Of a DNA stretch of 64,000 nucleotides, positions 43,059-57,610 are shown piece after piece (within the stretch, counting starts at the first letter, position 1; each line of letters starts with the position of its first letter). Source of the DNA: a virus (taxonomy: Duplodnaviria > Caudoviricetes); the IMG/VR virus record IMGVR_UViG_3300015050_001523, positions 128,001 through 192,000 of that record, one strand, 5' to 3'. Under the pieces are notes generated by a model. The model was not told the DNA's origin, did not search any database, and saw only the letters and a list, made by a program, of their open reading frames with translations. The translations under genes were made by a program, and so were the position numbers.

Positions 43059-43069
43059 TTTATTGACAA

Positions 43070-44116: not shown

Positions 44117-44138
44117 AGTTTCATTATAGCATAGCCAC

Positions 44139-44840: not shown

Positions 44841-44914
44841 TACTCAATAAATAATCAATAAAATACATTATGTTTCTCTATATAATATTTTTTTAAAATA
44901 TATTTATATTTGTA

Positions 44915-45526
44915 ATGAAATCTTTGGCCAGCTTTCTTATGATAGTAATGGCAATGTTTTTACTAACATGCTGCATACGGCCAACTTCACTAAATTTTCA
45001 TGAAAATAAAAATATTGAAGAATTAGAAATTCCAATTGTATTTCATGTAAGAAATAATGATGATATTAAATATAGAATACCTGAGTATTGGGATAGTTTT
45101 TCTGCTCCAATGTTTATACAGGCAGGAATATCTCCAAAAATAAATATTTCATTTTCAGATTATGATTTAAATCCAGACTTAAGTAACAAATCTACAAAAG
45201 ATGAATTTTATAACTTATCAAATGATGGAAAAATTCATATATTTTTTGTTGATACAATTTATAAAAATAAAATTAAATCAAATTATAATGGGGTTCATGA
45301 ATCAAAAAGTTTATGCAAATCTTTTATTTTAATTCAAGACAAAACAGACTTAAAAACAATAGCACATGAAATCGGTCATTATCTTGGACTTGGGCATGTT
45401 AGCAATAATATGGGAAATGTAATGAATCGAACTTCCAGAAATAAGAATGCAAGTTTTTCATCTGCTCAAATTAGAATAATGAGAAGCAATATAAAAAAAC
45501 AAAAATTATTCTGTAATATGATTTAA
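44915..45526 (+). CDS. Metzincin-type Zn metalloprotease, probable lipoprotein
   Basis: HEIGHYLGLGH plus Met-turn NVM; signal peptide ending LLTCC. Confidence 0.8.
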   Translation: MKSLASFLMIVMAMFLLTCCIRPTSLNFHENKNIEELEIPIVFHVRNNDDIKYRIPEYWDSFSAPMFIQAGISPKINISFSDYDLNPDLSNKSTKDEFYNLSNDGKIHIFFVDTIYKNKIKSNYNGVHESKSLCKSFILIQDKTDLKTIAHEIGHYLGLGHVSNNMGNVMNRTSRNKNASFSSAQIRIMRSNIKKQKLFCNMI

Positions 45527-46272
45527 GACGGAAGGTTTTCATCAATAAAATTATTTATTTGTTCTAACGTTGGTCCAAATGCTATATCGTATGATGGAGT
45601 TATGACGCTAGTAATAATTCCAACAAGGTTTCCAGTTTCTGGGTCATATACTGGTGAGCCGCTTGATCCCTTTTGTGCAACTATTGAATAAAGAGCTACT
45701 TCTTCTTTATATTCGTTATGTGGTCCTTTGTAATTTCCTTGAAACTCTCCATAAAAATGAAGTGCAGTTTCTTTTGACCAAAGACCAGCCGGAGCTGCTA
45801 TATTTATTATCTTTATATGTGATTTGATTTTTTTATTTTCAATAATTGCAGGCATCATAGAAACTTTTTTTGATTCAAGTAAACAAAGATCATGTTTCTC
45901 GTCAATAGCAACAACTGTTGCAATGTTGTTTTGTCCACTAGAATCCATCAAATGAAATTCTGATTTTACTATTGTGCTAAAGTCTTTATGTTGATTTGGA
46001 TTTTCTAAAGATGGAGTGATGCAGACATGTCCAGCAGTCAAATAATAACTTTTATTTGTTTTTTTGCTATGAGATACCAAAACACCAGATGCCATTGTTT
46101 TTCCAGCATTAGAAACAATACAAGAATCTGAGCTTTTATGGCATAGTGAAATTTCTATATGATTTTCAATATAAATAAATTGTTTTTCAGGATTTTTAAA
46201 ATCATTTTTTATATTACATCCAGATAAAATAATTGTCAAAGATAAAAAAAGTCTGCCGAAAAATTTTTTCAT
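45523..46272 (-). CDS. Trypsin-like serine protease, probable lipoprotein
   Basis: LTAGHVC, DLCLL, GSSGSP; lipobox LSGC. Confidence 0.85.
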   Translation of the reverse strand: MKKFFGRLFLSLTIILSGCNIKNDFKNPEKQFIYIENHIEISLCHKSSDSCIVSNAGKTMASGVLVSHSKKTNKSYYLTAGHVCITPSLENPNQHKDFSTIVKSEFHLMDSSGQNNIATVVAIDEKHDLCLLESKKVSMMPAIIENKKIKSHIKIINIAAPAGLWSKETALHFYGEFQGNYKGPHNEYKEEVALYSIVAQKGSSGSPVYDPETGNLVGIITSVITPSYDIAFGPTLEQINNFIDENLPS

Positions 46273-46356
46273 ATCCCTCCATAAGAAACCCAATCCTTAA
46301 ATACATATGGATAGAAAACTCACAAAAAATATGAAAAAAATTTAATTTTAATAAAA

Positions 46357-46429
46357 AGACCGAGATCGGATTTGAACCGATTTCATTTTGATTTGCAGTC
46401 AAAAGCCTAAACCATTTAGGAACTCAGTC
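46357..46429 (-). tRNA. tRNA-Cys(GCA)
   Basis: Cloverleaf; TTTGA-CTGCAAA-TCAAA. Confidence 0.9.
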
Positions 46430-46469
46430 AAAGCAACTTATGTTATATATTTATACTAAAGCCAAATCT

Positions 46470-47192
46470 ATGAACATCATTAAAGAATATATTAGAGCAT
46501 TATTAAAAGAAGCAGCAATTCAAGATATTTCCAATCTTGGACTTTTGATTCATTCAACAGGTTCTGTTTTAGATATTGTACTATATGATGCCCCAAGATT
46601 TATTGAAGAAACAAAAAAAAATAAATCTTTTACATTTTCTAATGACATGATTCTTGGAATGATTAAGGCTAAAAAGAGTGGATTTGGAAAATGTCATGGA
46701 GCGTGGGAAGTTGCAATGGTCGCTGCGAATAAAGGATTCGGCCCAACAATGTATGATATTGCAATGATGTCGGTTCCAACAAAAACAATAATGCCAGATA
46801 GAGGAGAGGTTAGTGGTCAAGCAAGATCAATTTGGCAATATTATAAAAATAAAAGATCTGATGTAAAAATTCTTCCGTTTGGAAAAGAAGAAGAAGACGA
46901 TACAAGTTCAAAATCATTATATAATTTTGATGACGATAGCGCCAATATCAAAGAAGACAAAGGAGGAGAAGGAGAATGTTTTTCTGCTCACTTTGGCCCT
47001 GGAAAGGAATATTTAGATGCAGCATATCGATTAGTTGGACCTCCGCCAATCGATATAAGCCAAGCTGTAAATAAGCACAACCTATTGGTCAAGTCTTTAA
47101 ATAATAAAAAGCCAGGTCTAGGAGATTCTTTTTCTGCATCTCTTAGAAATGGCTCTACAAGTTTTTTTACAGCTAAAAATACTAGAAATTAG
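46470..47192 (+). CDS. Hypothetical protein (possible virion-packaged protein)
   Basis: N-terminal IKEYIRALLKE; TATTTATA at 46448. Confidence 0.7.
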   Translation: MNIIKEYIRALLKEAAIQDISNLGLLIHSTGSVLDIVLYDAPRFIEETKKNKSFTFSNDMILGMIKAKKSGFGKCHGAWEVAMVAANKGFGPTMYDIAMMSVPTKTIMPDRGEVSGQARSIWQYYKNKRSDVKILPFGKEEEDDTSSKSLYNFDDDSANIKEDKGGEGECFSAHFGPGKEYLDAAYRLVGPPPIDISQAVNKHNLLVKSLNNKKPGLGDSFSASLRNGSTSFFTAKNTRN

Positions 47193-48058
47193 CTCATGTA
47201 CTTCTTGATTTCTAGTAAAGCCTTTTCAGCTCCACTTGAAATTTCAATCCCATTATCATTTAATCCTAAAATTTGAAAGTCTCTTGGATTAATCCTAATT
47301 AATTTTCCATTATACTTTGAAGCTAATTTGGTACTTAATGAACGAATTGTTGGAATATCAATGCCAGCACCAGTTTCAATAATCACCAATCTTGAAAGAT
47401 CAGATTTTTCAGCCCATTTTTCAAAATTTAATTGTTGCTCATGCTCTCTTGATTGCAAAAAAGCATAATCCATAAACATTAAAATATTTGGACGAAGAAG
47501 TTTTCCTTCAGACATTGGAAGATCTCCAACTACCCGGAATGTCTCTTCATCAATTTCAATATTAAAAGAATCTGCCGAAATAACTTCAGAATTATGCCAT
47601 TTGTCATTCATAAAATACTCTGAATGATGACATTTTTGCAAGTGATGAATTGAGCCATGTACTTCCCAAATATTTGAATCAGAAAATCCTGATTTTTTAT
47701 AAAATCCATCAACGTTTGAAGTTATTGCAAAATGATTATATTTTTTTGAAAGTTCATGCAAAAAACTATATCCAAGATGCGGAACATGCTCCCTATACAT
47801 TTTTAAACGATGTCCATAAAAAGCCCAAATCATTCTTGGATCCTTAATGAACCAAGAAGGCTGAGCAATATCATGAAAAGAAATTCCAATACGAGAAAAT
47901 ACTGGGTATGCTTTCCAAAATCCATTTTCTCCACGAAAATCAGGAAGCCCAGAATCAACTCCCATTCCAGCCCCAGAAGAAAAAATAAGAGCTGATGCAT
48001 TAGTAATCACATCGGCGGCCCTTTTCAAGTTGTCTTCAAGATGGATTTGTTGGCTCAT
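47189..48058 (-). CDS. Sir2/CobB-family NAD-dependent deacylase, leaderless
   Basis: GAGMGVDSGLPDFRG, TSNVDG, HGS, RPNILMF; TTGACA-N16-TATAGT-N6-ATG. Confidence 0.9.
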   Translation of the reverse strand: MSQQIHLEDNLKRAADVITNASALIFSSGAGMGVDSGLPDFRGENGFWKAYPVFSRIGISFHDIAQPSWFIKDPRMIWAFYGHRLKMYREHVPHLGYSFLHELSKKYNHFAITSNVDGFYKKSGFSDSNIWEVHGSIHHLQKCHHSEYFMNDKWHNSEVISADSFNIEIDEETFRVVGDLPMSEGKLLRPNILMFMDYAFLQSREHEQQLNFEKWAEKSDLSRLVIIETGAGIDIPTIRSLSTKLASKYNGKLIRINPRDFQILGLNDNGIEISSGAEKALLEIKKYMS

Positions 48059-48189
48059 GCATAAACTATAGCATCCAAATGGCATCTGTCAACCAGAAAT
48101 GACTTTGAAATTTAATTGCGCCATAAATCTATTACTTCACTTCCATTTATTTATAAAATAAACGAATCCATATTTTGACTTTAACAACG

Positions 48190-48292
48190 TGGCGCCGCTG
48201 GAATCTTCCGATTCGAGGGGTTTTATTTGCGATAGTGATCGCTTCAATCACAGAGTACCACTCTGCTAGCTGGTTCACTACTTCAGCACGGC
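48190..48292 (-). ncRNA. Unclassified CCA-ended multi-branch RNA
   Basis: Closing GCCG(TG)CTG/CAGCGGC plus GCCA; hairpins AGAGT/ACTCT, GTGAT/ATCAC, GAATC-GGAA-GATTC. Confidence 0.5.
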
Positions 48293-48299
48293 TTTCTTA

Positions 48300-48370
48300 T
48301 AGCAGGAGCGGGATTTGAACCCACAACTCTGGGTTATGAGCCCAGTAAGTTACCATTACTCTATCCTGCG
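48300..48370 (-). tRNA. tRNA-fMet(CAT)
   Basis: Unpaired C1, GGG/CCC anticodon stem. Confidence 0.9.
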
Positions 48371-48996
48371 TTAATTATTTTTGAGAAACAAGGATTCGAA
48401 CCTTGATTGACGGAATCAGAACCCGCGATCTTGCCATTAGATGATTTCCCATTAATTAATTTCTTTTCTCTTTTTGCAACTGCTGCCGAAGATACTCCCA
48501 ACCTATCAGCAATTTTTGCTCTTGTTGAATGTTTTAATTCCTCAAGAAGATCAATTGAGTCCCAATCTGCTTTATAGGCCAACTTGGCAGAACAAACATA
48601 TGAACAGGTTTTATTATAAGAAGGTTTTAAACTATTACATACTTTACATGGTGTCATTTTTGATATTTTTTGAACTTCTTTATAATCTGCAAATTCTTCA
48701 TTGAATGAATTATAATTTTCTGGAAGAGCTATTACATTTGCATGAAGTTCTCTATGGCATCGACAACACAATAAAACACATTTTCTAAGTTCATTTACAA
48801 TTTTTTCCCAAGATTTTGCAGAGCTTCTTGTCGCACCAAGAGCAAAGTCTTTTTCTTTTGGATCTATATGATGAAGATCAAATGCATCATGGCATAAACT
48901 ATATTCACATATAGCACATTTTCCTCCAAACGATTCCACTATTCGAGCTTTTGTAGCCTTTCTCCACACCTTAACTCGTTCTGATTCTTTTGACAT
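48361..48996 (-). CDS. HNH endonuclease whose 3' end overlaps tRNA-Gln
   Basis: CAIC...DLHHIDP...CVLLCCRCHRELH. Confidence 0.8.
   Translation of the reverse strand: MSKESERVKVWRKATKARIVESFGGKCAICEYSLCHDAFDLHHIDPKEKDFALGATRSSAKSWEKIVNELRKCVLLCCRCHRELHANVIALPENYNSFNEEFADYKEVQKISKMTPCKVCNSLKPSYNKTCSYVCSAKLAYKADWDSIDLLEELKHSTRAKIADRLGVSSAAVAKREKKLINGKSSNGKIAGSDSVNQGSNPCFSKIINAG
48381..48451 (-). tRNA. tRNA-Gln(CTG)
   Basis: Cloverleaf; U1-A72. Confidence 0.85.
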
Positions 48997-49036
48997 GTAT
49001 AAGCATACCATGTCAAATTACGAAACTACAAAAAAA

Positions 49037-49114
49037 CGACCCCGGTAGGATTTGAACCTACGCTGACAGAGTTTAACAGACTCTCGCTCTAAAACCAAAC
49101 TGAGCTACGGAGTC
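49037..49114 (-). tRNA. tRNA-Asn(GTT)
   Basis: AGAGT-CTGTTAA-ACTCT. Confidence 0.9.
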
Positions 49115-49221
49115 AAGAACTTGGACCTCTCATCCAATTATTCTTTTTATACAGAGTACAAAAGAAGGAACTACGTTCCAAAGTTTTGATTATGGCTCAA
49201 ACTTATAAAAGCCAAAATACA

Positions 49222-49294
49222 AGCGGGAGACGAGACTTGAACTCGCAACATTCAGTTTGGAAAACTGACACTCTACCAATTGAGTTACTCCCGC
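49222..49294 (-). tRNA. tRNA-Gly(TCC)
   Basis: TCAGT-TTTCCAA-ACTGA. Confidence 0.92.
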
Positions 49295-49302
49295 AATTAA
49301 CA

Positions 49303-49376
49303 AGCCCCAGGTCGGAGTCGAACCAACTACCTGATGATTACAAATCAACCGCTCTAGCCAAATGAGCTACAAGGGC
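49303..49376 (-). tRNA. tRNA-Thr(TGT)
   Basis: Cloverleaf; loop TTTGTAA. Confidence 0.9.
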
Positions 49377-49451
49377 AAAATTGCTCGTCTTTCCGAGCTG
49401 TCATTTTCTTAGTATTCTGGAACATCTAAGAACAACAGAACAATTAAGAAA

Positions 49452-49522
49452 CAGGCGGCGAAGGAATCGAACCCTCGACCATTGGTTTGGAATCAATTAT
49501 TTTACCACTAAACTAGCCGCCT
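49452..49522 (-). tRNA. tRNA-Trp(CCA)
   Basis: Cloverleaf; loop TTCCAAA. Confidence 0.88.
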
Positions 49523-49560
49523 TCATTACAAAGTATTTTCTTCTATTTAATTTTCAAAGA

Positions 49561-49635
49561 TCCAACCAGAAAGATTTGAACTTTCGACCTTTTGCTTATC
49601 AGACAAATGCTCTAACCAGGCTGAGCTATGGTTGG
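49561..49635 (-). tRNA. tRNA-Ile(GAT)
   Basis: TTTGT-CTGATAA-GCAAA. Confidence 0.88.
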
Positions 49636-49640
49636 TTAAG

Positions 49641-49711
49641 TTCGGGATAATGGAATCGAACCACTGTTGAGGCGTTCAAAGCGCCTTTTCTTACCACTAG
49701 AAGAATCCCGA
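49641..49711 (-). tRNA. tRNA-Gln(TTG)
   Basis: AGGCG-CTTTGAA-CGCCT. Confidence 0.9.
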
Positions 49712-49848
49712 ATAAACAATTTTTTTTAGGTTAAGGCCAAGAACATTTAATGGACTTTGTTCTTGGCTAAATAATGCCTGTCCATCCTTGAATAATCAAG
49801 TTTGCATTGTTGCAAGTTTGATTTGTCTGAGTCAGCATCGTAGATATA

Positions 49849-49877
49849 AGTATAGGGCATCTCGGGAAACTTGTCAA
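49849..49877 (-). promoter_or_regulatory. Consensus sigma70 promoter inside tRNA cluster
   Basis: TTGACA-N17-TATACT. Confidence 0.8.
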
Positions 49878-49890
49878 GTTTTTTTTGGAG

Positions 49891-49977
49891 CGGAAAGTAA
49901 GAGATTCGAACTCTTATCGCTTTTTAGACGAACACGCTTTCCAGGCGTGCGCAACCAACCGTATTTGCCTACTTTCC
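49891..49977 (-). tRNA. tRNA-Ser(GGA)
   Basis: CACGC-CTGGAAA-GCGTG; long V-arm. Confidence 0.9.
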
Positions 49978-50030
49978 ATAAATTATCCTAATCATTATGT
50001 TTATTTGTTTCCATTTTTTATTTTCTTTCA

Positions 50031-50117
50031 CGGAACGTGTAGGGTTCGAACCTACTCAAGATTTTACACTTCACTCAGATTAGCAATCTGGGGCCTTACC
50101 AATTCAGCCAACGTTCC
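50031..50117 (-). tRNA. tRNA-Ser(GCT)
   Basis: Loop TTGCTAA; long V-arm. Confidence 0.9.
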
Positions 50118-50124
50118 AAATAAA

Positions 50125-50196
50125 TTCTGAAAGCGGGAATTGAACCCACGTAGCGGGCTTATGAGACCCGTGCCTAAACCTCTCGGCCATTTCAGA
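50125..50196 (-). tRNA. tRNA-CAT (elongator Met or Ile2)
   Basis: CGGGT-CTCATAA-GCCCG. Confidence 0.85.
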
Positions 50197-50203
50197 TTGT
50201 TTA

Positions 50204-50560
50204 TTATTTGATAAGATTTGAAAGAATATAATTAAGAGATTTTATCCTTTTAATTTCTTTCCAATAGTCTTCTTCATGGAGAAAATATGTTCCATGTATA
50301 TAATATTCTTCATATTGGATACGTCCTTCCCATATTCTTGCAGGTCCATCTTCTCTATGGCGCATTCCGCTAATGCACCATTCTTTATATCCATTTTTCC
50401 ATTCAATTGCAGGACCATCTTCTCGATGAAGTCTTCCATTTATATAATAAGCCTTGCCTCCATTTGAATCTTCAAAAGCATGGCCGTCTTCTCTATGAAG
50501 AAGACCATTTAAATAATAACTTTTATTACCAAATTCATCAATAATCAATCCATTTTTCAT
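50204..50560 (-). CDS. HRxDGPA repeat protein
   Basis: Three repeats; EEDYWKEIKRIKSLNYILSN. Confidence 0.8.
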   Translation of the reverse strand: MKNGLIIDEFGNKSYYLNGLLHREDGHAFEDSNGGKAYYINGRLHREDGPAIEWKNGYKEWCISGMRHREDGPARIWEGRIQYEEYYIHGTYFLHEEDYWKEIKRIKSLNYILSNLIK

Positions 50561-50572
50561 ATATAAAATCCT

Positions 50573-51079
50573 TTAATTTTTTTCAAATAGCCAATTAGAC
50601 CATTGCTCAGGGATATTTCCATCAACATAATCTGAATACATTGTTTTTACACTTGGTACAGTGGGCCTTTGAGCAATCCTCATATTCGCCTGTTGCGGTG
50701 TTCTGTTCGCTTTTTCAGTGTTGCATGTTTTGCAACATGCAACAATATTTGTCCAAGTTGTCTTGCCGCCAACAGATTTTGGAATAACATGATCAAGAGT
50801 TAGGTCTTGGCTTCGAAATTTCCCTTCACAATATTGACAAGTATTATTATCACGGCTTAAAATATTTGCACGAGAATAACGAATTCTCATTGGTTCAGCC
50901 TTTGTTGATTTTCTCAATCTAACAACAGCCGGAACATTAAATTCAACAGATGGAGAACTTATTGTTTTTTCGTAACCTTCAAGAATGTCAACTTTTCCAA
51001 GAAAATGCATGCAAATAGCACGCTGCCATGAAATTGCTTTTATCGGTTGATAACCTTGATTAAGAAGAAGAGTTTTCAT
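50573..51079 (-). CDS. HNH endonuclease (McrA-like)
   Basis: CQYC...TLDHVIPKS.GG.TTWTNIVACC..CN..K. Confidence 0.9.
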   Translation of the reverse strand: MKTLLLNQGYQPIKAISWQRAICMHFLGKVDILEGYEKTISSPSVEFNVPAVVRLRKSTKAEPMRIRYSRANILSRDNNTCQYCEGKFRSQDLTLDHVIPKSVGGKTTWTNIVACCKTCNTEKANRTPQQANMRIAQRPTVPSVKTMYSDYVDGNIPEQWSNWLFEKN

Positions 51080-51578
51080 ATATTTCTTTCATTCCATATT
51101 TCTCTGCCTCTAAAGGCAGAGTGTAAATTGTTGTGTCTACATTAATTGATTCTTTTATAATTTCTTCAATTTTGTCCCAGGATCCACCAGCCAAGCCGGC
51201 GCCCATTCTGGGCATATGCAGGGTTGGATTCTTCCCTTCGTAAGTTTGCATTAATTCTTGGATGTTGTCAAGTCCTTTTTTTATTGCTTCATAACGAATC
51301 GGAGGAACACCATCAACTGTCCATATTCCTTCTTGACCAATTAAATTTATAACTATAATATCTTTTTCAACAGGGACAACTTGAATAGTACCTAATTCAT
51401 ATTCATTTCCATTACCCCATTTTCTATAAATTAGCTCAGGCATTCCCCATCGTTTTGATAATGCAATTACAAATCCACTTCCCCAAGCTCCTACGTTGTT
51501 GCAGCAATGAGTAATGAATTTAATTCCTTTAGCACCAACAGGATTGGTGGCATCGCCGATTACATGTTTTATAGCCAT
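51060..51578 (-). CDS. Macrodomain ADP-ribose hydrolase-like protein
   Basis: GDAT, HCCNNVGAWGSGF, PRMGAGLAGG. Confidence 0.88.
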   Translation of the reverse strand: MAIKHVIGDATNPVGAKGIKFITHCCNNVGAWGSGFVIALSKRWGMPELIYRKWGNGNEYELGTIQVVPVEKDIIVINLIGQEGIWTVDGVPPIRYEAIKKGLDNIQELMQTYEGKNPTLHMPRMGAGLAGGSWDKIEEIIKESINVDTTIYTLPLEAEKYGMKEIYENSSS

Positions 51579-51587
51579 ATGGCTATA

Positions 51588-51986
51588 CTATACCACTAAA
51601 TCTTGCTCTTGCAAACCAGGAAGGACAAGATTTTTTATTTCCTGATATCCTTCTCCACCCAATCCTAAATAACTTTTGATAAAGTATTCTGCTTGACTAT
51701 CCATTTCAAGAACTTTTTTCAAAATTGATCTTTCTCTAATTTTATCAATTTCCATGTAATTTTTCATATATTTTACAATATCTTGAAAGAGTTTTGCCTT
51801 TTCAGGACTAATCTTGTTTGAAGGTTGTTGTGGCCTTTTGGCCATTTTTTGTCTTTCTTCTTCTTTTTGTTTTTTATATAATGCAGAATTTTCTCTGTTT
51901 TGAGTATAGTCTATAAATTCTTTTTCATCAAATTCATATTCAAATAAAATTCTTCTTATTGTTTCTCTTAATAAAGATGGCCGCAT
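51588..51986 (-). CDS. Hypothetical protein (possible virion-packaged protein)
   Basis: N-terminal LLRETIRRILFE; TATTTAC upstream within a 14-bp inverted repeat. Confidence 0.65.
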   Translation of the reverse strand: MRPSLLRETIRRILFEYEFDEKEFIDYTQNRENSALYKKQKEEERQKMAKRPQQPSNKISPEKAKLFQDIVKYMKNYMEIDKIRERSILKKVLEMDSQAEYFIKSYLGLGGEGYQEIKNLVLPGLQEQDLVV

Positions 51987-52019
51987 ATTAGTAAATATGC
52001 GGCCATCAACAAAGAATCA

Positions 52020-52142
52020 TAGGCAAAATATATAGAGATTATTTTTAACGTGCAGCCCTTACACTTCAGACACAAAGTGTCCGTTAGGAATCGAACCTAA
52101 TCTTTTCTATTAACAGTAGATGTAATCCCTAAAAGCATCCTA
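52020..52142 (-). ncRNA. Y RNA-like 1 (YrlA-type, T-arm-containing)
   Basis: 5' UAGGAUG...GGAUUACAU and 3' ...UUUUGCCUA; internal UUAGG-UUCGAUU-CCUAA; starts 3 nt after Ro60 stop. Confidence 0.75.
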
Positions 52143-52145
52143 TAT

Positions 52146-53747
52146 TTATATTTTATTATAAATGTCTATATTGTTTATAACGTCAAGCCAATAAAATCCA
52201 TTTTTTCCATGTTTTGCAAATTGTGCAATTGTGTCCCAAACAGTATCAGAGAATCCTCCAATATTTAGAATATCATCACGATTTGGAGCCTGTGATGAAG
52301 TATAAGGTTGAATATCGATGCAAACCATTTTTGCATTTGGATTATTCTTTTTGACCATATCCCAATATTTAAGTGTTTCTGTTTGATAATGGCCTCTTGC
52401 TCGATCTCCAATCCAAGACTCATTATCTGAAACATAAATAACCAAATCAACATTTTGTTTTGTTTCTGCAAGATGTTTGACTCCAAGATAAGAGTATGTT
52501 CCTCCTCCTGGATATGCAGACAATTTTTTAGCATTTGTCATCACAGAATCTCTTGGATTCAATTGTAAATTCATTTTTAATGCTGTATCAAATGGAATAA
52601 CATTTGATTGTCTATTTTTTCTTAGAATTGCTGAAGCTACAAGAGCTGCAACATCAATGCATCTAATTGAAGATGGTTTTTTATTTCGTCCAGTAATTGA
52701 CGAACCCATTGAACCTGATACATCAGGAAACACCCAGATATTTCCTGGGATGTTTGGAATATTTTCAAGCGAAATATCAAGAGCATCTTGAAGAGCTTCT
52801 GTAATTTCAAAAGGCATACCTTTTGTTGATACAGTGTTCATATATGCAGCCATTAGCTGATATGGGAACACTTTTGCATTTTTGATATCCTCTGGATCTC
52901 TTAGTCTTTGAGCAATAAGATTTACCATTTCTTTTTTCTCAAAGACATTATGACGCATAAATGTATTTAGATTCATGCGAGTCATTGTCCATTTTGCATT
53001 TCTTGCAATTTCTTTCCAATGACTATCATTTAGTCCCAAGCTATCTAACATTTGAAATGGAAGATCTGGAATTGTTACTTCGTCCGAATTTGATGCAATT
53101 GCACTTTTGCAATTTTCATAATTTTTAATTATTTCAGGAAGATCCTTTTCTGAGGAATTAAACAGTTTTCCACTCACTTCTTTGTTCCCAATTAAATAGG
53201 AATAAAGAGCTTCCTGTTGCGCATCTTGTGGTTTTGGATGCACCATTTTAATAATGTCTGCAACTGATGGAGTATTTCCAACACTATCTTTAAAAAGACG
53301 ACTATTATTCATTCGCACAAACCACATTTTTAATTGTCGGCGCATTGCTCTTGGAAAGCTTTTTTTCCCATCAACAAGTCCAGAACGAACAAACTGAACA
53401 TGGTTTCGAACCATTTTTGTGTTGTCCATTACAGTTGGAAAAACTTCCTCATATAATGTTGGATTTCTGAATGCCAAATAAGAAAGTAAAAGAGCTGGCA
53501 TGTCTTTCATAAACGCATTTTTGCGTGAATAAATCGCAAGTTTTGCTATAAAAACTGTTCCGTCAGGTGTTTCTGAAATCTTATTTACAAGATTTTTAAC
53601 AGTTTCTAGCTGAGCATCTTCTGATGCATAATAAGTGTCTGAAATACACCCAGTTGCCGCAATTTGCGCCAACGAAGCACGATCTCCAAGATCGTATGCA
53701 AGACCACCAGCTTCATTTACAGTTAGTTTATTTGATTTATTTTTCAT
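52146..53747 (-). CDS. rsr: Ro60/TROVE-domain RNA-binding protein (Rsr)
   Basis: MKDMPALLL, AKVFPYQL, vWA MIDAS DVSGSM, SDNESW, CIDIQPY, NIGGFSD. Confidence 0.92.
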   Translation of the reverse strand: MKNKSNKLTVNEAGGLAYDLGDRASLAQIAATGCISDTYYASEDAQLETVKNLVNKISETPDGTVFIAKLAIYSRKNAFMKDMPALLLSYLAFRNPTLYEEVFPTVMDNTKMVRNHVQFVRSGLVDGKKSFPRAMRRQLKMWFVRMNNSRLFKDSVGNTPSVADIIKMVHPKPQDAQQEALYSYLIGNKEVSGKLFNSSEKDLPEIIKNYENCKSAIASNSDEVTIPDLPFQMLDSLGLNDSHWKEIARNAKWTMTRMNLNTFMRHNVFEKKEMVNLIAQRLRDPEDIKNAKVFPYQLMAAYMNTVSTKGMPFEITEALQDALDISLENIPNIPGNIWVFPDVSGSMGSSITGRNKKPSSIRCIDVAALVASAILRKNRQSNVIPFDTALKMNLQLNPRDSVMTNAKKLSAYPGGGTYSYLGVKHLAETKQNVDLVIYVSDNESWIGDRARGHYQTETLKYWDMVKKNNPNAKMVCIDIQPYTSSQAPNRDDILNIGGFSDTVWDTIAQFAKHGKNGFYWLDVINNIDIYNKI

Positions 53748-53775
53748 ATTTTTATCCTTTTAATCTTAAGGCAAC

Positions 53776-54042
53776 TCAGTAATATTTTGTTTCTGGTTGA
53801 AACTTAAATGTTTTAAATATTTCTTCTAAACATTCATCACAAATAGAAAATGAGTAACAAACACTATCACAGAGACCTTTCTGGTCTCCATTGATCTCAA
53901 TTTCTGCTAACCCATAATGGGAATTATTTTTATTTTCACAATTGACCTCATAGTGGTCGCAGCCGAATCTGATTCCGCATTTATTACAAATAATATCTGT
54001 TTCTTTTTTTGTTTCTTTAATTGGCATTTTAAGCCCTTTCAA
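53776..54042 (-). CDS. Zn-ribbon-like protein (paralogue of 31425-31700)
   Basis: ICNKCG...FSICDEC. Confidence 0.7.
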   Translation of the reverse strand: MKGLKMPIKETKKETDIICNKCGIRFGCDHYEVNCENKNNSHYGLAEIEINGDQKGLCDSVCYSFSICDECLEEIFKTFKFQPETKYY

Positions 54043-54074
54043 AATGAATTTGGGAGATTATAAAAAATTTAAAT

Positions 54075-54200
54075 TAGGCAAAAGTGATAAAGATATTTTT
54101 TCGCGCTTTAACCAATTAAGCTATCCCTTTATATAAAGGGAACAGGACTCGAACCTGTAACTCGTCTTCCGTATAGATGTAATCCCTATCTGACATCCTA
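54075..54200 (-). ncRNA. Y RNA-like 2 (YrlA-type with circularly permuted tRNA domain)
   Basis: Conserved terminal helix; order T-arm (ACAGG-UUCGAGU-CCUGU), closed acceptor-like hairpin (UCCCUUU/AAAGGGA), D-arm (AGCUUAAUUGGUUAAAGC). Confidence 0.8.
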
Positions 54201-54205
54201 ACTTA

Positions 54206-54278
54206 TGCTGTGAGCGAGGGTCGAACTCGCGCTGGATAGGTTCTTAGCCTATTGTCTCTGCCATTGGACTACCACAGC
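54206..54278 (-). tRNA. tRNA-Leu(AAG), short variable loop
   Basis: ATAGG-CTAAGAA-CCTAT. Confidence 0.8.
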
Positions 54279-54352
54279 AAATGAAACGGGTCAAGAGAAA
54301 TATAGCCATTTCTTGTTGGGATTTGAACCCAATATATTTCTTACTTACCCTA

Positions 54353-54435
54353 TACCTGAGATGGGATTCGAACCCACATGGGCTTTCGCCAAAAGATTTT
54401 GAGTCTTCCTCCTGCTACCGTTCGGATACTCAGGC
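54353..54435 (-). tRNA. tRNA-Leu(CAA)
   Basis: Loop CTCAAAA; long V-arm. Confidence 0.9.
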
Positions 54436-54613
54436 AAAAATAAAAGAGAGGGCTCAAAAATTATATATAATTTTTTTGAGTTTCAAGTCATTGTGTATAT
54501 ACAACTCCCTCGCACAAAATAACTGAAAAAGGGACCTCGTAAAATCCCCTTTTCGCCTCTGACTTACCTTTTACGAGACTTATAAGTTAAATAAAGATGT
54601 TATTTTGTCTTGA

Positions 54614-54695
54614 TGCGCAAAGTGGGAATCGAACCCACACGAATAAATCACCCGGTTCTAAGCCGAGCCTGTCTACCAAATTTCAGCATATGCGC
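54614..54695 (-). tRNA. tRNA-Leu(TAG)
   Basis: CTCGG-CTTAGAA-CCGGG. Confidence 0.9.
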
Positions 54696-54701
54696 AAAAT
54701 A

Positions 54702-54821
54702 AATTGGAGAACGAATAAGTTCGTTTTTTCAAGGTATGCCTGATCGATCAAGGCACTCTCCACCCAGCAGTATTTTCCATGTCTGCTCAATCCTTCAAGG
54801 GATTTTTCCCACTTCCCAATT
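54702..54821 (-). ncRNA. Unclassified structured RNA (about 120 nt)
   Basis: Closing AAUUGGGAA/UUCUCCAAUU; hairpins AGCAG/CUGCU, UGCCU/AGGCA, ACGAA/UUCGU. Confidence 0.5.
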
Positions 54822-54864
54822 AATTAGATCGGGCTTTATGTAAGGGACTTATAGGTCTTGAAAG

Positions 54865-54937
54865 TCCTCAAAATGGGATTCGAACCCATACTTTACAGAT
54901 TTTAAGTCTGGTGTCTCTGCCGTTGGACTACTTGAGG
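54865..54937 (-). tRNA. tRNA-Leu(TAA), short variable loop
   Basis: Loop CTTAAAA. Confidence 0.85.
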
Positions 54938-54944
54938 TTAAAAA

Positions 54945-55106
54945 TGGGGCGGCTATCCAGTCAAACTCCATGTGCCGCCCCCGACACCGAGTTTCATAAA
55001 CCAAGCCAATAGGGCCTTGAGCCGAAGAGCTTGGAGGATTTGGTAAACGACCGACTACGCCGATCCTCTACCAAAAATCGGATTTGCATTGCATCTCCGA
55101 GGGATT
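54945..55106 (-). ncRNA. Unclassified GC-rich structured RNA (about 160 nt)
   Basis: Stems GAGGAU/AUCCUC, CCAAGC/GCUUGG, GGGGCGGC/GCCGCCCC within AT-rich context. Confidence 0.5.
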
Positions 55107-55112
55107 AAAATA

Positions 55113-55198
55113 TAGGCAAAAATTTGAAAAGATTGGGTATCGGCGCTTTATAGGATATCTCCTACCGATTTTTGCATGTAATCCTTTTTAGCATCCTA
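55113..55198 (-). ncRNA. Y RNA-like 3
   Basis: UAGGAUGCUAAAAAGGAUUACAU...AAUCUUUUCAAAUUUUUGCCUA. Confidence 0.7.
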
Positions 55199-55205
55199 CA
55201 TAAAG

Positions 55206-55280
55206 GTTGATTGACGGGACTTGCACCCGCTAAATTCTGATTCACAGTCAGAAGCCAATCTTCTTTGGTCGTCAATCAAC
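55206..55280 (-). tRNA. tRNA-His(GTG) with encoded G-1
   Basis: TCTGA-CTGTGAA-TCAGA; atypical D-loop and T-loop TGCAAGT. Confidence 0.8.
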
Positions 55281-55289
55281 ATAAATTAT

Positions 55290-55396
55290 TAGGCAATATA
55301 ATACAAAATGTTATTGATGAATTGGCGTCCCAATTAGCGAGTCCCCCCGTTAATCGAACCCCAAACCGATTGCGATGTAATTCTGTATCCATCCTA
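55290..55396 (-). ncRNA. Y RNA-like 4
   Basis: UAGGAUGGAUACAGAAUUACAUC...AUUUUGUAUUAUAUUGCCUA; internal GGUUCGAUU. Confidence 0.65.
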
Positions 55397-55399
55397 ATA

Positions 55400-55472
55400 T
55401 GGGAAGTCCTGGTTTCGAACCAGGCCATCAGAGGCTTCAACTCTGCGTAACTACCATGCTCACTCACTTCCC
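55400..55472 (-). tRNA. tRNA-Phe(GAA)
   Basis: CAGAG-TTGAAGC-CTCTG. Confidence 0.85.
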
Positions 55473-55487
55473 GAAATCATAAAAAAT

Positions 55488-55560
55488 TAGGCAAAACAAT
55501 ATAAAACTTTTGTGTAATCGCCGGTTAACAGCGAGCAGGTGTATTTCTATATTCATCCTA
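55488..55560 (-). ncRNA. Y RNA-like 5
   Basis: UAGGAUGAAUAUAGAAAUACAC...UUUUAUAUUGUUUUGCCUA. Confidence 0.65.
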
Positions 55561-55573
55561 ATAAAATTTAAAA

Positions 55574-55725
55574 GCCGGTCTTTTCCCGGCTGTCAAGCAG
55601 GCTTCACTAAAAGATTCGTATCTATCTTTCACAACTCCCGGAGGTAATGGGGTTGGGCCTATTTGTGACGTTATTTGTTTTGTTTCCGCAACGCACCAAC
55701 GGAATCCTCTTTTGCGCAGGAACTA
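55574..55725 (-). ncRNA. Unclassified RNA ending in GACAGCCGG-GAAAAGA-CCGGC hairpin
   Basis: 3' motif matches the 7.4-7.8 kb repeat core with compensatory changes; internal UUCCG/CGGAA and AAAGAU/AUCUUU stems. Confidence 0.55.
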
Positions 55726-55732
55726 AAAATTT

Positions 55733-55793
55733 TAGGCAAAAACTATAAGATGTTTTTATCAATAAATGCGATGTAATCCTATAAAGCATCCTA
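55733..55793 (-). ncRNA. Y RNA-like 6 (minimal)
   Basis: UAGGAUGCUUUAUAGGAUUACAU...AUCUUAUAGUUUUUGCCUA. Confidence 0.7.
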
Positions 55794-55813
55794 AAATAAA
55801 ATTATAAATAAAA

Positions 55814-55875
55814 TAGGCAAAAATTTGAAAAGATTTTTTGTATTTGGTAAAAATGTAATCCTTTCTAGCATCCTA
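55814..55875 (-). ncRNA. Y RNA-like 7 (minimal)
   Basis: UAGGAUGCUAGAAAGGAUUACAU...AAUCUUUUCAAAUUUUUGCCUA. Confidence 0.7.
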
Positions 55876-55883
55876 TTAAATTA

Positions 55884-55972
55884 TGGGCAGGGAGGGATTC
55901 GAACCCCCATCGCTTACTTTATTCGGGCTAGATTTACAGTCTAGTGCAGCCATCCGTATCTGCGTCCTACCC
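55884..55972 (-). tRNA. tRNA-Tyr(GTA)
   Basis: CTAGA-CTGTAAA-TCTAG; long V-arm. Confidence 0.9.
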
Positions 55973-55984
55973 TAAAATTACTAA

Positions 55985-56059
55985 TCGAGGTAGCAGGATT
56001 CGAACCTGCGGTCTCTTGTTTCCAAAACAAGCGCGATAACCAGACTTCGCTATACCTCG
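55985..56059 (-). tRNA. tRNA-Pro(TGG)
   Basis: CTTGT-TTTGGAA-ACAAG. Confidence 0.92.
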
Positions 56060-56108
56060 ATAATAATCTCCCATGTTCATTTCTATTTAATTTTCAAAAA
56101 AACAAAAG

Positions 56109-56184
56109 TACCTGATGGGGGAATTGAACCCAAAACCATCTTATCGTTCGAAGCGATAAATTCTATCCGTTAAAATAATCAGGC
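56109..56184 (-). tRNA. tRNA-Arg(TCG)
   Basis: TATCG-CTTCGAA-CGATA; weak T-stem. Confidence 0.8.
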
Positions 56185-56197
56185 ATATTAGAAGAAG

Positions 56198-56269
56198 CGC
56201 CCGATCAAGGACTTGAACCTTGAATTTAACCTTCGCAAGATTATGTGATATCCGTTTCACTAACCGGGC
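56198..56269 (-). tRNA. tRNA-Arg(GCG)
   Basis: TAATC-TTGCGAA-GGTTA. Confidence 0.85.
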
Positions 56270-56401
56270 AGAAATTTAGAAGCTTTGTAACAAGCTATAA
56301 AACCGATGCTTATAGGTTTGACGGAGACATGGATATAAGGGCTTCGGCTTTGTTCCGAAATCTTCAACCTTTGCTTTGTTTTGAGCGTCCATGATGTTTA
56401 C

Positions 56402-56430
56402 ACTATATCAGATCTAAGTAGGGGTGTCAA
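56402..56430 (-). promoter_or_regulatory. Consensus sigma70 promoter heading the tRNA/Y-RNA cluster
   Basis: TTGACA-N17-TATAGT. Confidence 0.85.
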
Positions 56431-56528
56431 CAGGTTTTTTCTTTGACCATGCAAGAAAATTTTTAAGTCCATTTAATTAAATAATTAAGCCGAGCATTGC
56501 TCGGCTTAGGATTCGATAAATTATTACT

Positions 56529-57410
56529 TTATAAGTTCCAAAGAGAAGGTTTATTATTTGCAATATCTTGCATTTCTGAATCGTCTTCAAATCCAAGATG
56601 CTTTAAGTAATCAGATGGAGACATTCCATTTTTTTGTGCAAGAGAAATAATTTGATTTCTTGTATCTTTTGGATACATCTTTAGCATTTGAATATCTTCT
56701 CGACGGTCTCGATTTCCCGTCGACACAATATCTCCAAGAGTTTTTGGACTTAGATGTTCCTCCCAGTCTGAGGCCATTTCGTCCTCCCATGTAAGGTCGT
56801 TCGGAGCATCCTTCCATTCATAATCATCATCATAAGGAGATGATTTGTCATCAAAATTTCTTCCTGTCCATGGGCCAGCTTCTGCCAAAGATAAAACAAC
56901 TCCATCAATATCCTCATCCTCATCGCCCATGTCATCCATATCCATGTCGTCATCCATATCCATATCATGTTGTTGATATTGAGGAGTTGCTGCGCCAAGT
57001 CGGCTTGGAGGAGTCATTGCAGGATTTTGTGACATAATTGGCATTCTTTCAGATTGGGCTTGTTTTTCTCCGCAACCACCGCCAGAATACACAGGAGCAG
57101 AAGAAGCTGCTGCAAAATTTGTTCCTCCTCCCATTTGAACATTTGCAGCATAAGCGCTATTACTATATTCAATATAATGTTTTACATCGCTTATGCTTTG
57201 TGATGCTTTAGAAATTTTATCTTCAACCCAATCAGGTGCTTCTGAATCTTTTGAAAGCATTGACATCAACTCTCCAGAATATTCATGAATTTTTGCCAAA
57301 TTTGCCATAAGCATATTTTCGCCACTTTCTGCACTACAAGCTGAGCACATTTCAAGTAGCGCGGTAAACTCATCATTTCCCATAAATTTGTTATTGTACG
57401 GTAATTCCAT
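56529..57410 (-). CDS. Acidic hypothetical protein (possible virion protein)
   Basis: APDWVEDKISKA...VKHYIEY motif; TATTTATA 3 nt upstream; terminator hairpin near 56487. Confidence 0.7.
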   Translation of the reverse strand: MELPYNNKFMGNDEFTALLEMCSACSAESGENMLMANLAKIHEYSGELMSMLSKDSEAPDWVEDKISKASQSISDVKHYIEYSNSAYAANVQMGGGTNFAAASSAPVYSGGGCGEKQAQSERMPIMSQNPAMTPPSRLGAATPQYQQHDMDMDDDMDMDDMGDEDEDIDGVVLSLAEAGPWTGRNFDDKSSPYDDDYEWKDAPNDLTWEDEMASDWEEHLSPKTLGDIVSTGNRDRREDIQMLKMYPKDTRNQIISLAQKNGMSPSDYLKHLGFEDDSEMQDIANNKPSLWNL

Positions 57411-57469
57411 AACTATAAATAGTTATATATCAAACAAAAAAACCTCTTGATATCAAGAGGTTTTAAAGA

Positions 57470-57610
57470 TTACTTTCCAAGAAGTATGTTTTGAATAAGC
57501 TTTAATTCATAAACTATAATATGGTCTCCACGTTCATGGAGCTTTTCAAGAGATTTAATCTTTTTGTCAATGTGAATAATTGTTTTAGCAATTTTATCTT
57601 TATCAGCCAT
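57470..57610 (-). CDS. 46-aa hypothetical protein, absent from track
   Basis: MADKDKIAKTIIHIDKKIKSLEKLHERGDHIIVYELKLIQNILLGK*; followed by a terminator hairpin near 57438. Confidence 0.45.
   Translation of the reverse strand: MADKDKIAKTIIHIDKKIKSLEKLHERGDHIIVYELKLIQNILLGK

What the first reader, a model, noticed from the sequence alone, without database searches (positions are those of the whole stretch)
52020..55875. Phage Ro60 with an array of seven Y-RNA-like genes that share one terminal helix but carry different payload domains
Seen in sequence: seven minus-strand units (52020-52142, 54075-54200, 55113-55198, 55290-55396, 55488-55560, 55733-55793, 55814-55875) all begin UAGGAUG..., end ...UUGCCUA and mostly carry GGAUUACAU. 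The second helix covaries: GAAAGGAUU/AAUCUUUUC, UAUAGGAU/AUCUUAUA, GAUAGGGAU/AUCUUUAUC, GAUACAGAAU/AUUUUGUAUU, AAUAUAGAA/UUUUAUAUU. Unit 2 holds a permuted tRNA domain (T-arm, closed acceptor hairpin, D-arm), units 1 and 4 hold T-loops, and units 6-7 are bare 61-62-nt stems. Established: bacterial Ro60 (Rsr) binds a bulged terminal helix of Y RNAs, YrlA RNAs are tRNA mimics encoded next to rsr, and a few phages carry rsr/yrl. Inference: seven diversified copies among the tRNAs suggest a modular Ro60 RNP toolkit, for example tethering different enzymes such as PNPase, acting as decoys for host anticodon nucleases, or sponging host Rsr.
Basis: partly seen in the sequence, partly recalled or inferred. 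Interest (0 to 1): 0.92.

Follow-up and report, generated by a model that had tools for sequence, protein, structure and literature searches.

The report
Seven Y-RNA genes beside phage Ro60
A 322-kb uncultured jumbo phage carries a Ro60 gene inside a tRNA operon together with seven small RNA genes that share the Ro60-binding stem of bacterial Y RNAs but have different tips, which makes it an unusually large version of a known system.

Summary
Exactly seven minus-strand units lie at the stated coordinates and nowhere else in the 322.5-kb genome. A covariance model built from the shared scaffold finds these seven and 40 more units beside Ro60 genes on 11 related phage contigs. Across the 47 units, 95.5% of cells form a standard pair and 11 of 15 pairs show compensatory changes (0 of 500 shuffles reach this).

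The scaffold is homologous to the Rsr-binding stem of bacterial YrlA/YrlB Y RNAs. Bacterial rsr loci carry the same two-helix design with GCGAAUGC ... ACUACAU ... UUGUCGC. The phage clade has changed the helix letters by compensatory changes (UAGG-A-UGC / UUG-CCUA).

- U2 is a YrlA-type permuted tRNA mimic.
- U1, which starts 1 nt after the Ro60 stop codon, is a second, conserved tRNA mimic.
- U6 and U7 are minimal, YrlB-like hairpins.
- U3, U4 and U5 carry lineage-specific tips.
- U3 and U7 have near-identical scaffolds with unrelated tips.

Ro60 binding, transcript ends and the proposed roles (toolkit, decoy, sponge) are inferred; no RNA data were available. Phage Ro60 with Y RNAs is already known, so this is an expanded variant, not a new kind. 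The scan's other notes on this stretch are first-reader readings of the same DNA.

The parts
52018..52144 (-). U1: class-B Y RNA. Scaffold plus a permuted tRNA-like domain (T-arm, 7-bp closed acceptor-like hairpin, D-arm of the GUGUAAGGG type). Starts 1 nt after the Ro60 stop codon.
   Evidence: R1 42 bits. The RNAalifold consensus with 6 orthologues has 15 of 31 pairs with compensatory changes. The orthologue in the 87%-identical relative L098 keeps the hairpin through compensatory changes. Two flanking pairs added.
52146..53747 (-). Ro60 (Rsr) gene, 533 aa, with an intact MIDAS-type DVSGS motif
   Evidence: Pfam vWA_Ro60 1e-14 and TROVE 1e-8. About 50% identical to bacterial Rsr and up to 90% to metagenomic phage copies. 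Matches solved Rsr 2NVO, phage phiLo Ro60 9KOP and Xenopus Ro60 1YVP over its full length.
54073..54202 (-). U2: class-A Y RNA, YrlA proper. Scaffold plus T-arm, 7-bp closed acceptor-like hairpin, UA dinucleotide and D-arm.
   Evidence: Rfam YrlA RF02553 35.7 bits, E 9e-7 in a local search, full model span, below the gathering score of 69. R1 30.7 bits. The consensus with 6 orthologues has 17 of 29 pairs with compensatory changes.
55111..55200 (-). U3: scaffold nearly identical to U7, with a 45-nt nested-hairpin tip
   Evidence: R1 68 bits. The 5' 23 nt match U7 at 22 of 23 positions and the 3' 22 nt at 22 of 22, while the tips are unrelated. The tip has no homologue in the fetched loci.
55288..55398 (-). 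U4: scaffold with a 68-nt irregular long-hairpin tip. It has a T-loop-like string but no T-stem.
   Evidence: R1 22.6 bits, E 6e-4. Single-sequence fold z = -2.47. The tip has no homologue.
55486..55562 (-). U5: scaffold with a 34-nt tip holding a 6-bp hairpin
   Evidence: R1 20.5 bits, E 2e-3; fold; the tip has no homologue.
55731..55795 (-). U6: minimal scaffold-only hairpin (YrlB-like)
   Evidence: R1 41 bits; fold.
55812..55877 (-). U7: minimal scaffold-only hairpin (YrlB-like)
   Evidence: R1 84.6 bits, but it was used to build the model. Weak Rfam YrlB match: 23.4 bits, E 0.26, against a gathering score of 97.
56402..56430 (-). Sigma-70-like promoter candidate upstream of the tRNA, Y RNA and Ro60 block
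   Evidence: TTGACA, 17-nt spacer, TATAGT: 11 of 12 positions, with TG before the second hexamer. This is a consensus match only.
51976..52007 (-). Intrinsic-terminator-like hairpin just after U1
   Evidence: 14-bp stem with 7 G-C pairs, followed by a U-rich tail.
54206..56269 (-). Nine called tRNA genes plus a tRNA-His-like gene interleaved with U2-U7. Four units start 1-6 nt after a tRNA discriminator base.
   Evidence: ARAGORN and Rfam; spacers read from the sequence; tRNA-His-like gene.

Best explanation
The seven units are paralogous Y-RNA genes of the bacterial YrlA/YrlB type, encoded in one tRNA, Y RNA and Ro60 transcription unit of a jumbo phage.

Each RNA closes its 5' and 3' ends into a conserved two-helix stem:
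- a 6-bp terminal helix;
- an unpaired A followed by invariant U.G and G.U pairs (AUG opposite UUG);
- an asymmetric internal loop (5' C(N)n, 3' U-rich);
- a 9-bp second helix with an invariant G.U pair;
- then UACAU.

This stem corresponds to the Rsr-binding module of YrlA and is the inferred docking site for the phage Ro60 ring. The tip beyond the stem varies and is the inferred effector module. There are two different permuted tRNA mimics (U2, U1), two bare hairpins (U6, U7) and three lineage-specific hairpins (U3-U5).

The RNAs are probably released from the polycistronic precursor by the tRNA-processing enzymes that cut the flanking tRNAs. The resulting Ro60 RNPs most likely act in surveillance, degradation or repair of structured RNA, especially tRNA, during infection.

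Shown here: the gene set, the RNA structure, the homology to Yrl scaffolds and the linkage to Ro60. Inferred: Ro60 binding, processing and function.
For: 1. Seven and only seven copies, all within 3.9 kb around Ro60 and on its strand. There are none in the other 16-tRNA cluster at 42.4-50.2 kb.

2. Model R1 finds 47 units beside Ro60 homologues on 12 phage contigs. Of their cells, 95.5% are paired and 11 of 15 pairs show double changes, for example UAGG/CCUA, CAGG/CCUG, UGGG/CCCA and AAAG/CUUU. U6.G, G7.U and the helix-2 G.U are invariant. The slid controls pair in 39-53% of cells.

3. The conserved G.U pairs and the single strand orientation show that the structure is selected at the RNA level.

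4. In 80 bacterial rsr loci, all 62 R1 hits lie on the rsr strand. Their sequence, GCGAAUGC...GA(C/U)UACAU...UUGUCGC, carries the published GNCGAAN0-1G Rsr-binding motif (PMC4201824). Rfam YrlA passes its gathering score in the same loci.

5. U2 aligns to Rfam YrlA across the T-arm, acceptor-like hairpin and D-arm. Classes A and B each give covarying consensus folds.

6. The Ro60 protein is full length.

7. As a control, 681 kb of viral DNA holding the 5' motif by chance gave 0 R1 hits.

8. Promoter-like and terminator-like sites bracket the block, and four units start 1-6 nt after a tRNA 3' end.

9. Related phages place RtcB next to Ro60, as in bacterial rsr-yrl-rtcBA operons.
Against: - There is no expression or binding evidence. 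No RNA run holds this sequence.
- No unit reaches an Rfam gathering score. U2 scores 35.7 against 69 for YrlA, and U7 scores 23.4 against 97 for YrlB.
- The literal motif GNCGAAN0-1G is not met: the window has UAGGAUG. Ro60 is reported to read mainly the 5'-strand bases, so binding cannot simply be assumed.
- Single-sequence folding energies are not better than shuffles for most units.
- The phage loci were fetched through Ro60, so their Ro60 linkage is partly by construction.
- This phage has no RtcB.
- The tips of U3-U5 have no homologues, so their function is unsupported.
Confidence: 0.8

Rival explanations
1. The units are punctuation or processing hairpins of the tRNA operon, that is, RNase recognition or stabiliser elements that work without Ro60.
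For: They are interleaved with tRNAs and start 1-6 nt after tRNA 3' ends. Bacterial loci that carry them also hold large tRNA arrays.
Against: - None lies in the neighbouring 16-tRNA cluster of the same genome.
- In L072 the units lie after rsr.
- The scaffold carries the published Rsr-binding motif in bacteria (PMC4201824).
- U1 sits after the Ro60 stop codon, not between tRNAs.
Confidence: 0.07
2. The RNAs mainly act on host factors and are not cofactors of the phage Ro60. They would be decoys for host tRNA-targeting nucleases or tRNA-binding enzymes (U1, U2), or sponges for a host Rsr.
For: Two of the tips are close tRNA mimics. The phage carries its own tRNA set and Rnl1/Rnl2 RNA ligases, typical of the conflict over tRNA cleavage.
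Against: - The strictly conserved part is the Ro60-type stem, not the tip.
- The bare units U6 and U7 have no tRNA-like decoy surface.
- The helix letters differ from the bacterial consensus, which argues against mimicry of a host Y RNA.
- The host is unknown.
Confidence: 0.08
3. They are DNA-level repeats, such as MITE- or REP-like elements with terminal inverted repeats, and have no RNA function.
For: They are short, repeated and have inverted termini. The array composition differs between 87%-identical relatives.
Against: - The invariant G.U pairs would be A.C on the other strand.
- All copies share one orientation.
- Compensatory changes keep the pairing across 47 copies.
- The embedded T-arm and D-arm structures covary.
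Confidence: 0.02

Closest known systems
Bacterial YrlA (Rfam RF02553; Salmonella and Mycobacterium smegmatis YrlA; Chen et al. 2014, PMC4201824; Wang et al. 2018, bioRxiv 10.1101/312249)
   Same: - Encoded within 4 kb of rsr on the same strand.
- The 5'/3' stem has a terminal helix, AUGC opposite UUG, a second helix and then (C/U)UACAU.
- The tip is a permuted tRNA: T-arm, loop-closed acceptor-like stem, UA, D-arm (U2; U1 in a second version).
- The acceptor-like stem is 7 bp, as in M. smegmatis YrlA, which is cut by RNase P.
   Different: - The helix letters of the Rsr-binding motif are changed (UAGG-A-UG against GNCGA-A-UG), with compensatory 3' changes.
- The Rfam score is below the gathering threshold.
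- Two distinct tRNA-mimic paralogues occur in one genome.
- The genes are embedded in a phage tRNA operon.
YrlB / Yrn2-type short Y RNAs (Rfam RF02565; PMC4201824)
   Same: U6 and U7 are the binding stem closed by a small loop, without a tRNA-like domain. They are encoded next to rsr alongside a YrlA.
   Different: The Rfam YrlB match is only weak (23.4 bits). Here there are two such copies plus three more with other tips.
Phage Ro60 systems: mycobacteriophage YrlA (22 phages, PMC4201824) and Thermus phage phiLo Ro60 with Yrl1/Yrl2 (PMC12135203)
   Same: A phage-encoded Ro60 with Y-like RNAs encoded beside it. phiLo Ro60 binds its two Yrls and forms a complex with host PNPase.
   Different: - The window's Ro60 is only about 22-24% identical to those proteins.
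- It has seven RNAs, not one or two.
- It belongs to a clade of uncultured huge phages with 2-7 units per locus.
- The closest cultured phage Ro60, Myxococcus phage Mx1 at 45% identity, gave no R1 hit.
Metazoan Y RNAs and nematode stem-bulge RNAs
   Same: They are multi-gene families that share a Ro60-binding bulged stem and differ in loop modules. The geometry of a helix, a single unpaired 5'-strand base and then wobble pairs resembles UGGUC[C]GA/UUGACUA.
   Different: No sequence homology was demonstrated. They are made by Pol III as single genes and have no tRNA-like permuted domain.

Membership tests
YrlA (RF02553) | Encoded within about 4 kb of a Ro60/rsr gene, on the same strand | tested here: met
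   All seven units lie within 2.2 kb of Ro60 (52146-53747) on the minus strand.
YrlA (RF02553) | Score at or above Rfam's gathering threshold (69 bits) | tested here: not met
   U2 scores 35.7 bits (E 3e-5 over 4.9 kb; 9e-7 in a local search). The other units show no YrlA match at E<=10. None of the 10 related phage loci reaches the gathering score. Bacterial loci of the same Ro60 clade do.
YrlA (RF02553) | GNCGAAN0-1G motif near the 5' end (proposed Rsr contact; PMC4201824) | tested here: not met
   The window has (N)UAGGAUG. The A-U-G part and the helix geometry are kept, but C-G-A has become A-G-G, with compensatory changes on the 3' strand. The more distant phage L004 and the bacterial loci keep GCGAAUG.
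YrlA (RF02553) | Effector module that is a permuted tRNA: T stem-loop, loop-closed acceptor-like stem, UA, D stem-loop, with the stem to the ends in place of the anticodon stem | tested here: met
   U2 aligns with high posterior probability over the T-arm, acceptor-like stem and D-arm, and the consensus fold covaries. U1 has a second version with AA in place of UA. U3-U7 lack this module.
Y RNA (general: Ro60-bound ncRNA) | 5' and 3' ends pair into a long stem with a conserved bulged helix, supported by covariation | tested here: met
   95.5% of cells are paired, 11 of 15 pairs show double changes and 0 of 500 shuffles reach this. Two further outer pairs were found.
Y RNA (general: Ro60-bound ncRNA) | Physically bound and stabilised by Ro60 | not testable with these tools
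   No protein-RNA test was available and no RNA-seq run was listed.
Ro60/Rsr protein | TROVE HEAT-repeat ring plus vWA domain with a MIDAS motif | tested here: met
   Pfam TROVE and vWA_Ro60 match above their cut-offs. The protein aligns over its full length to 2NVO, including DVSGS. It is 50% identical to annotated bacterial Ro60.

The most novel reading that the evidence does not exclude
A clade of huge phages has built a private Ro60 adaptor system in three steps:
- it re-coded the Ro60-binding helix (fourth pair A-U changed to G-C), so that phage Y RNAs pair with the phage Ro60 and not a host Rsr;
- it multiplied the scaffold to as many as seven genes;
- it swaps tips on it.

The tips include two different tRNA mimics with 7-bp acceptor-like stems that RNase P could open and the CCA enzyme extend, and, in relatives, a whole tRNA-Thr-like cloverleaf. 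Each RNP would then direct Ro60, with a host exonuclease or a phage ligase, to a different class of damaged or foreign RNA during the conflict over tRNA cleavage.
Probability: 0.2. Interest if true: 0.78.

Novelty: new variant of a known kind. Interest (0 to 1): 0.55.

Why it matters
What Y RNAs do in bacteria and phages is still largely open. The current model is a Ro60-binding module plus an exchangeable effector module, and it rests on one or two RNAs per species.

This locus and its relatives offer a natural series. There are 47 units on 12 phage contigs with the same covarying stem and at least five kinds of tip. One pair, U3 and U7, differs essentially only in the tip. That makes the modular-tether idea directly testable by pull-downs, using one protein and seven RNAs.

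The lineage-specific change in the proposed Ro60 contact helix gives a handle on recognition specificity. Finally, the tight packing with tRNAs, and the same tRNA-array, Y RNA and rsr architecture in Acidobacteria genomes, links Ro60 biology to tRNA supply and repair in phage-host conflict.

Tried and rejected
- **RNA evidence.** Two searches of public sequencing runs listed no RNA run, and the DNA holders had 18% of the words or fewer.
- **Nearby DNA relatives.** blastn of the 4-kb region against 50,697 phage records matched only tRNA pieces.
- **Bacterial loci.** A single-sequence scan of genome contigs found nothing. The alignment-based scan then gave 80 loci.
- **Pattern scan.** GGATGC-N3-10-GGATTACAT in viral contigs returned 117 stretches that were chance matches, with 0 R1 hits in the 80 fetched. 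I kept this only as a specificity control.
- **MAFFT alignments.** The alignments of all units (A1, A2, A3) put the 3' strand of helix 2 out of register. I rejected them for modelling and used a four-sequence in-register alignment (A4) with a hand-written structure.
- **Cys-rich ORF upstream of Ro60 (53779-54027).** I considered it as a conserved partner and rejected it: it is conserved only in the 87%-identical relative.
- **RtcB linkage.** RtcB is present in relatives L005, L009 and L014 but absent from this genome. No CCA-adding enzyme was found either.
- **Other non-tRNA spacers in the block (segments A-E).** I tested them as extra Y-like copies. They gave no R1 hits and have no homologues in related loci.
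- **Rfam placement.** The Rfam alignment of U2 put the phage helix 2 on YrlA's outer helix. Comparison with the bacterial loci shows that the better correspondence is helix 1 with the outer helix and helix 2 with the inner helix.

Full report
**What the window is**

The window is bases 128001-192000 of a 322,518-bp IMG/VR virus record. It is 33.6% G+C, and CheckV estimates it as 93% complete. ARAGORN and Rfam find 25 tRNA genes on the minus strand in two clusters, at 42.4-50.2 kb and at 54.2-56.3 kb.

**Checking the observation**

Seven of the 10 TAGGATG sites and seven of the 14 TTGCCTA sites in the window lie in this 3.9-kb stretch, in alternating order. A whole-genome regex that allowed one mismatch per end found exact pairs only here. 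GGAUUACAU is exact in five units. U4 and U5 have GAAUUACAU and GAAAUACAC, with matching C-to-U changes in the opposite strand.

Single-sequence folds give the two-helix stem for six of the seven units. Their energies are not better than shuffles, except for U4. For short AT-rich RNAs this says little either way.

**The protein**

The ORF at 52146-53747(-) encodes 533 aa. It matches Pfam vWA_Ro60 and TROVE. It is about 50% identical to thousands of bacterial Ro60/Rsr proteins and 52-90% identical to metagenomic copies on large phage-like contigs. It aligns end to end with solved Rsr (2NVO), phage phiLo Ro60 (9KOP) and Xenopus Ro60 (1YVP), and keeps the DVSGS MIDAS motif. It is a genuine Ro60.

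**Comparative test of the RNA**

I fetched the contigs that encode Ro60 relatives (L004-L014 and L098). The same scaffold appeared at once, with changed end letters that stay complementary: CAGG...CCUG, UGGG...CCCA, AAGG...CCUU.

MAFFT put the 3' strand of helix 2 out of register (A1-A3). I therefore built covariance model R1 from four units of equal geometry (A4), with a structure I wrote by hand.

R1 finds all seven window units and 40 more on the other 11 contigs, giving 2-7 per locus. On that alignment:
- 95.5% of cells form standard pairs, against 76.9% in shuffles and 39-53% when the partners are slid;
- 11 of 15 pairs have changes on both sides;
- no shuffle of 500 reaches any of the measures.

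The alignment was fitted to the model, which inflates the paired percentage. It does not create the many different pair types seen: UA, CG, AU and GC at pair 1, and GC, AU and UA in helix 2. RNAalifold run independently on MAFFT alignments of two subclasses recovered the same helices.

Three wobble pairs never vary: U6.G, G7.U, and the G.U in helix 2. These would be A.C on the other strand, so selection acts on the minus-strand RNA.

Flanking positions -1/+1 and -2/+2 pair in 96% and 83% of units, against about 40% expected.

**Specificity**

- R1 without filters over 41000-57500 gives the seven units at 20.5-84.6 bits. The next hit scores 11.3 bits (E 0.7), and there is nothing in the other tRNA cluster.
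- The genome-wide search gives hits only here.
- In the independent 392-kb record behind L004, the only hit lies beside Ro60, and it is weak (18.3 bits, E 0.23).
- 681 kb of viral DNA that carries the 5' half of the motif by chance gives no hit.

**What the scaffold is**

An alignment-based scan gave 80 bacterial rsr loci, from Pyrinomonadaceae and other Acidobacteriota, Planctomycetes and Verrucomicrobia. R1 hits them 62 times, always on the rsr strand, with up to three hits per locus.

Their sequence is (cg)GCGAAUGC, helix 2, GA(C/U)UACAU, tip, helix 2', UUGUCGC(cg). This contains the GNCGAAN0-1G motif that Chen et al. proposed as the Rsr contact in YrlA and YrlB (PMC4201824). Canonical YrlA passes Rfam's gathering score in the same loci, and it has the same layout.

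The window's stem is thus the YrlA/YrlB Rsr-binding module. Its geometry is unchanged: four helix pairs (six with the flanks), one unpaired A, then U.G and G.U. The helix letters have changed in a compensatory way, and the fourth pair is G-C in the phage clade where bacteria and the more distant phage L004 have A-U.

Rfam itself gives only sub-threshold matches: U2 to YrlA at 35.7 bits against 69, and U7 to YrlB at 23.4 bits against 97. I therefore read the units as homologues and functional analogues. By Rfam's own criterion they are not members.

**The tips**

- **U2** has a T-arm, a 7-bp loop-closed acceptor-like stem, the UA dinucleotide and a D-arm. This is the order defined for YrlA (bioRxiv 10.1101/312249). 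It has orthologues in five to six phage loci.
- **U1** begins one base after the Ro60 stop codon. It has the same order of elements with a different D-arm (GUGUAAKGG type). Orthologues sit in the same place in six loci. The 87%-identical relative L098 keeps its acceptor-like hairpin through several compensatory changes.
- **U6 and U7** are the stem closed by a 21-22-nt loop. This resembles the short hairpin Y RNAs (YrlB, Yrn2) described in each studied bacterium.
- **U3, U4 and U5** carry hairpins with no detectable homologue in any fetched locus. U4's GGUUCGAUU has no T-stem.
- **U3 and U7** share 22 of 23 and 22 of 22 scaffold positions but have unrelated tips. This is direct evidence for recent tip exchange on a duplicated scaffold.

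L098 has a tRNA where the window has U2, so the array turns over quickly.

**Operon and processing (inferred)**

A strong sigma-70-like site (56430-56402) and a terminator-like hairpin (52007-51976) bracket the following order of genes: tRNA-Arg, Arg, Pro, Tyr, U7, U6, U5, Phe, U4, a His-like tRNA, U3, four tRNA-Leu, U2, a small ORF, Ro60, U1.

The extended helices of U4, U2, U3 and U7 start 1, 3, 4 and 6 nt after a tRNA discriminator base. U5 and U4 end 13 and 7 nt before the next tRNA. The flanking tRNAs I read through (Leu-AAG, Phe, the His-like gene) do not encode CCA.

Release by the tRNA 3'- and 5'-processing enzymes is therefore the simplest route. M. smegmatis YrlA and YrlB are likewise processed from a single precursor.

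**Function (inferred)**

Known Y RNAs dock Ro60 by the stem and use the other module to tether or gate. Examples are PNPase in Deinococcus and Salmonella, and phiLo Ro60 with its Yrls and host PNPase.

Relatives of this phage place RtcB directly upstream of Ro60. This phage lacks RtcB and a CCA enzyme, but it has Rnl1- and Rnl2-type ligases elsewhere.

The most likely role is Ro60-based surveillance, decay or repair of structured RNA, above all tRNA, during infection, with several adaptor RNAs. Which partner each tip binds is unknown.

**Novelty**

Ro60 with YrlA in phages (22 phages, PMC4201824), a TROVE protein in some jumbo phages (PMC7824862), and two Yrls bound by a phage Ro60 (PMC12135203) are all published. 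I found no paper on multi-copy Y-RNA arrays in tRNA operons.

Seven genes with five or more kinds of tip, a re-coded binding helix, and conservation of the arrangement across a clade of uncultured huge phages make this an expanded variant of a known system. It is not a new kind.

Noticed in passing
window 54938-55110 (-): A 173-nt G+C-rich spacer between U3 and tRNA-Leu(UAA). It folds strongly (MFE -63 kcal/mol) and ends in a terminator-like GGGGCGGC...GCCGCCCC hairpin followed by Us. It has no Rfam match and no homologue in related loci.
   Followed up: partly
window 55562-55730, 54697-54863, 54437-54611 (-): Three more 165-175-nt non-coding, non-tRNA spacers lie inside the tRNA/Y RNA block. 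Two share a CUUAUAAGUC-like string near the 5' end, and two contain terminator-like hairpins (55591-55573, 54554-54525). No homologues were found and R1 gave no hit.
   Followed up: partly
window 55205-55280 (-): A tRNA-His-like gene (GUG anticodon loop, 8-bp acceptor stem, UGCAAGU T-loop) that ARAGORN and Rfam missed at the gathering threshold. It is homologous to weak tRNA hits in L006 and L005.
   Followed up: partly
window 54280-54351 (-): A 72-nt element between two tRNA-Leu genes, with a canonical T-arm enclosed by a long stem and an outer 7-bp acceptor-like stem. It is not called as a tRNA.
   Followed up: no
window 7059-7160 (-): Rfam calls a full-length tRNA (56 bits) spanning 102 nt that ARAGORN does not report. 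It may be a tRNA with an insert or an intron.
   Followed up: no
L005:1656-1773 and L009:2815-2917: These Y scaffolds have tips that score as a complete, non-permuted tRNA (44 and 43 bits). ARAGORN calls tRNA-Thr(UGU) in L005. In that fold the conserved GAUUACA of the scaffold serves as the 5' acceptor strand, so the stem and the cloverleaf are alternative folds.
   Followed up: partly
L024, L029, L031, L037, L053, L060, L062, L073 (bacterial rsr loci): Pyrinomonadaceae and other Acidobacteriota MAG contigs carry many tRNA genes (about 7 to 22 listed per locus) in the 4 kb upstream of rsr, together with YrlA and R1-type units. This is the same architecture as in the phage and may be a shared or transferred module.
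   Followed up: partly
L008 (305-kb contig), L009, L011: Relatives carry a tmRNA gene and an EF-Tu gene near Ro60 (L008), an RtcB interrupted by an intein (L009), and a group I intron in the tRNA region (L011).
   Followed up: no
window 14300-14939: A local cluster of four TTGCCTA sites and one TAGGATG site on both strands, outside the Ro60 region. R1 gave no hit there. It is probably a coding repeat.
   Followed up: no
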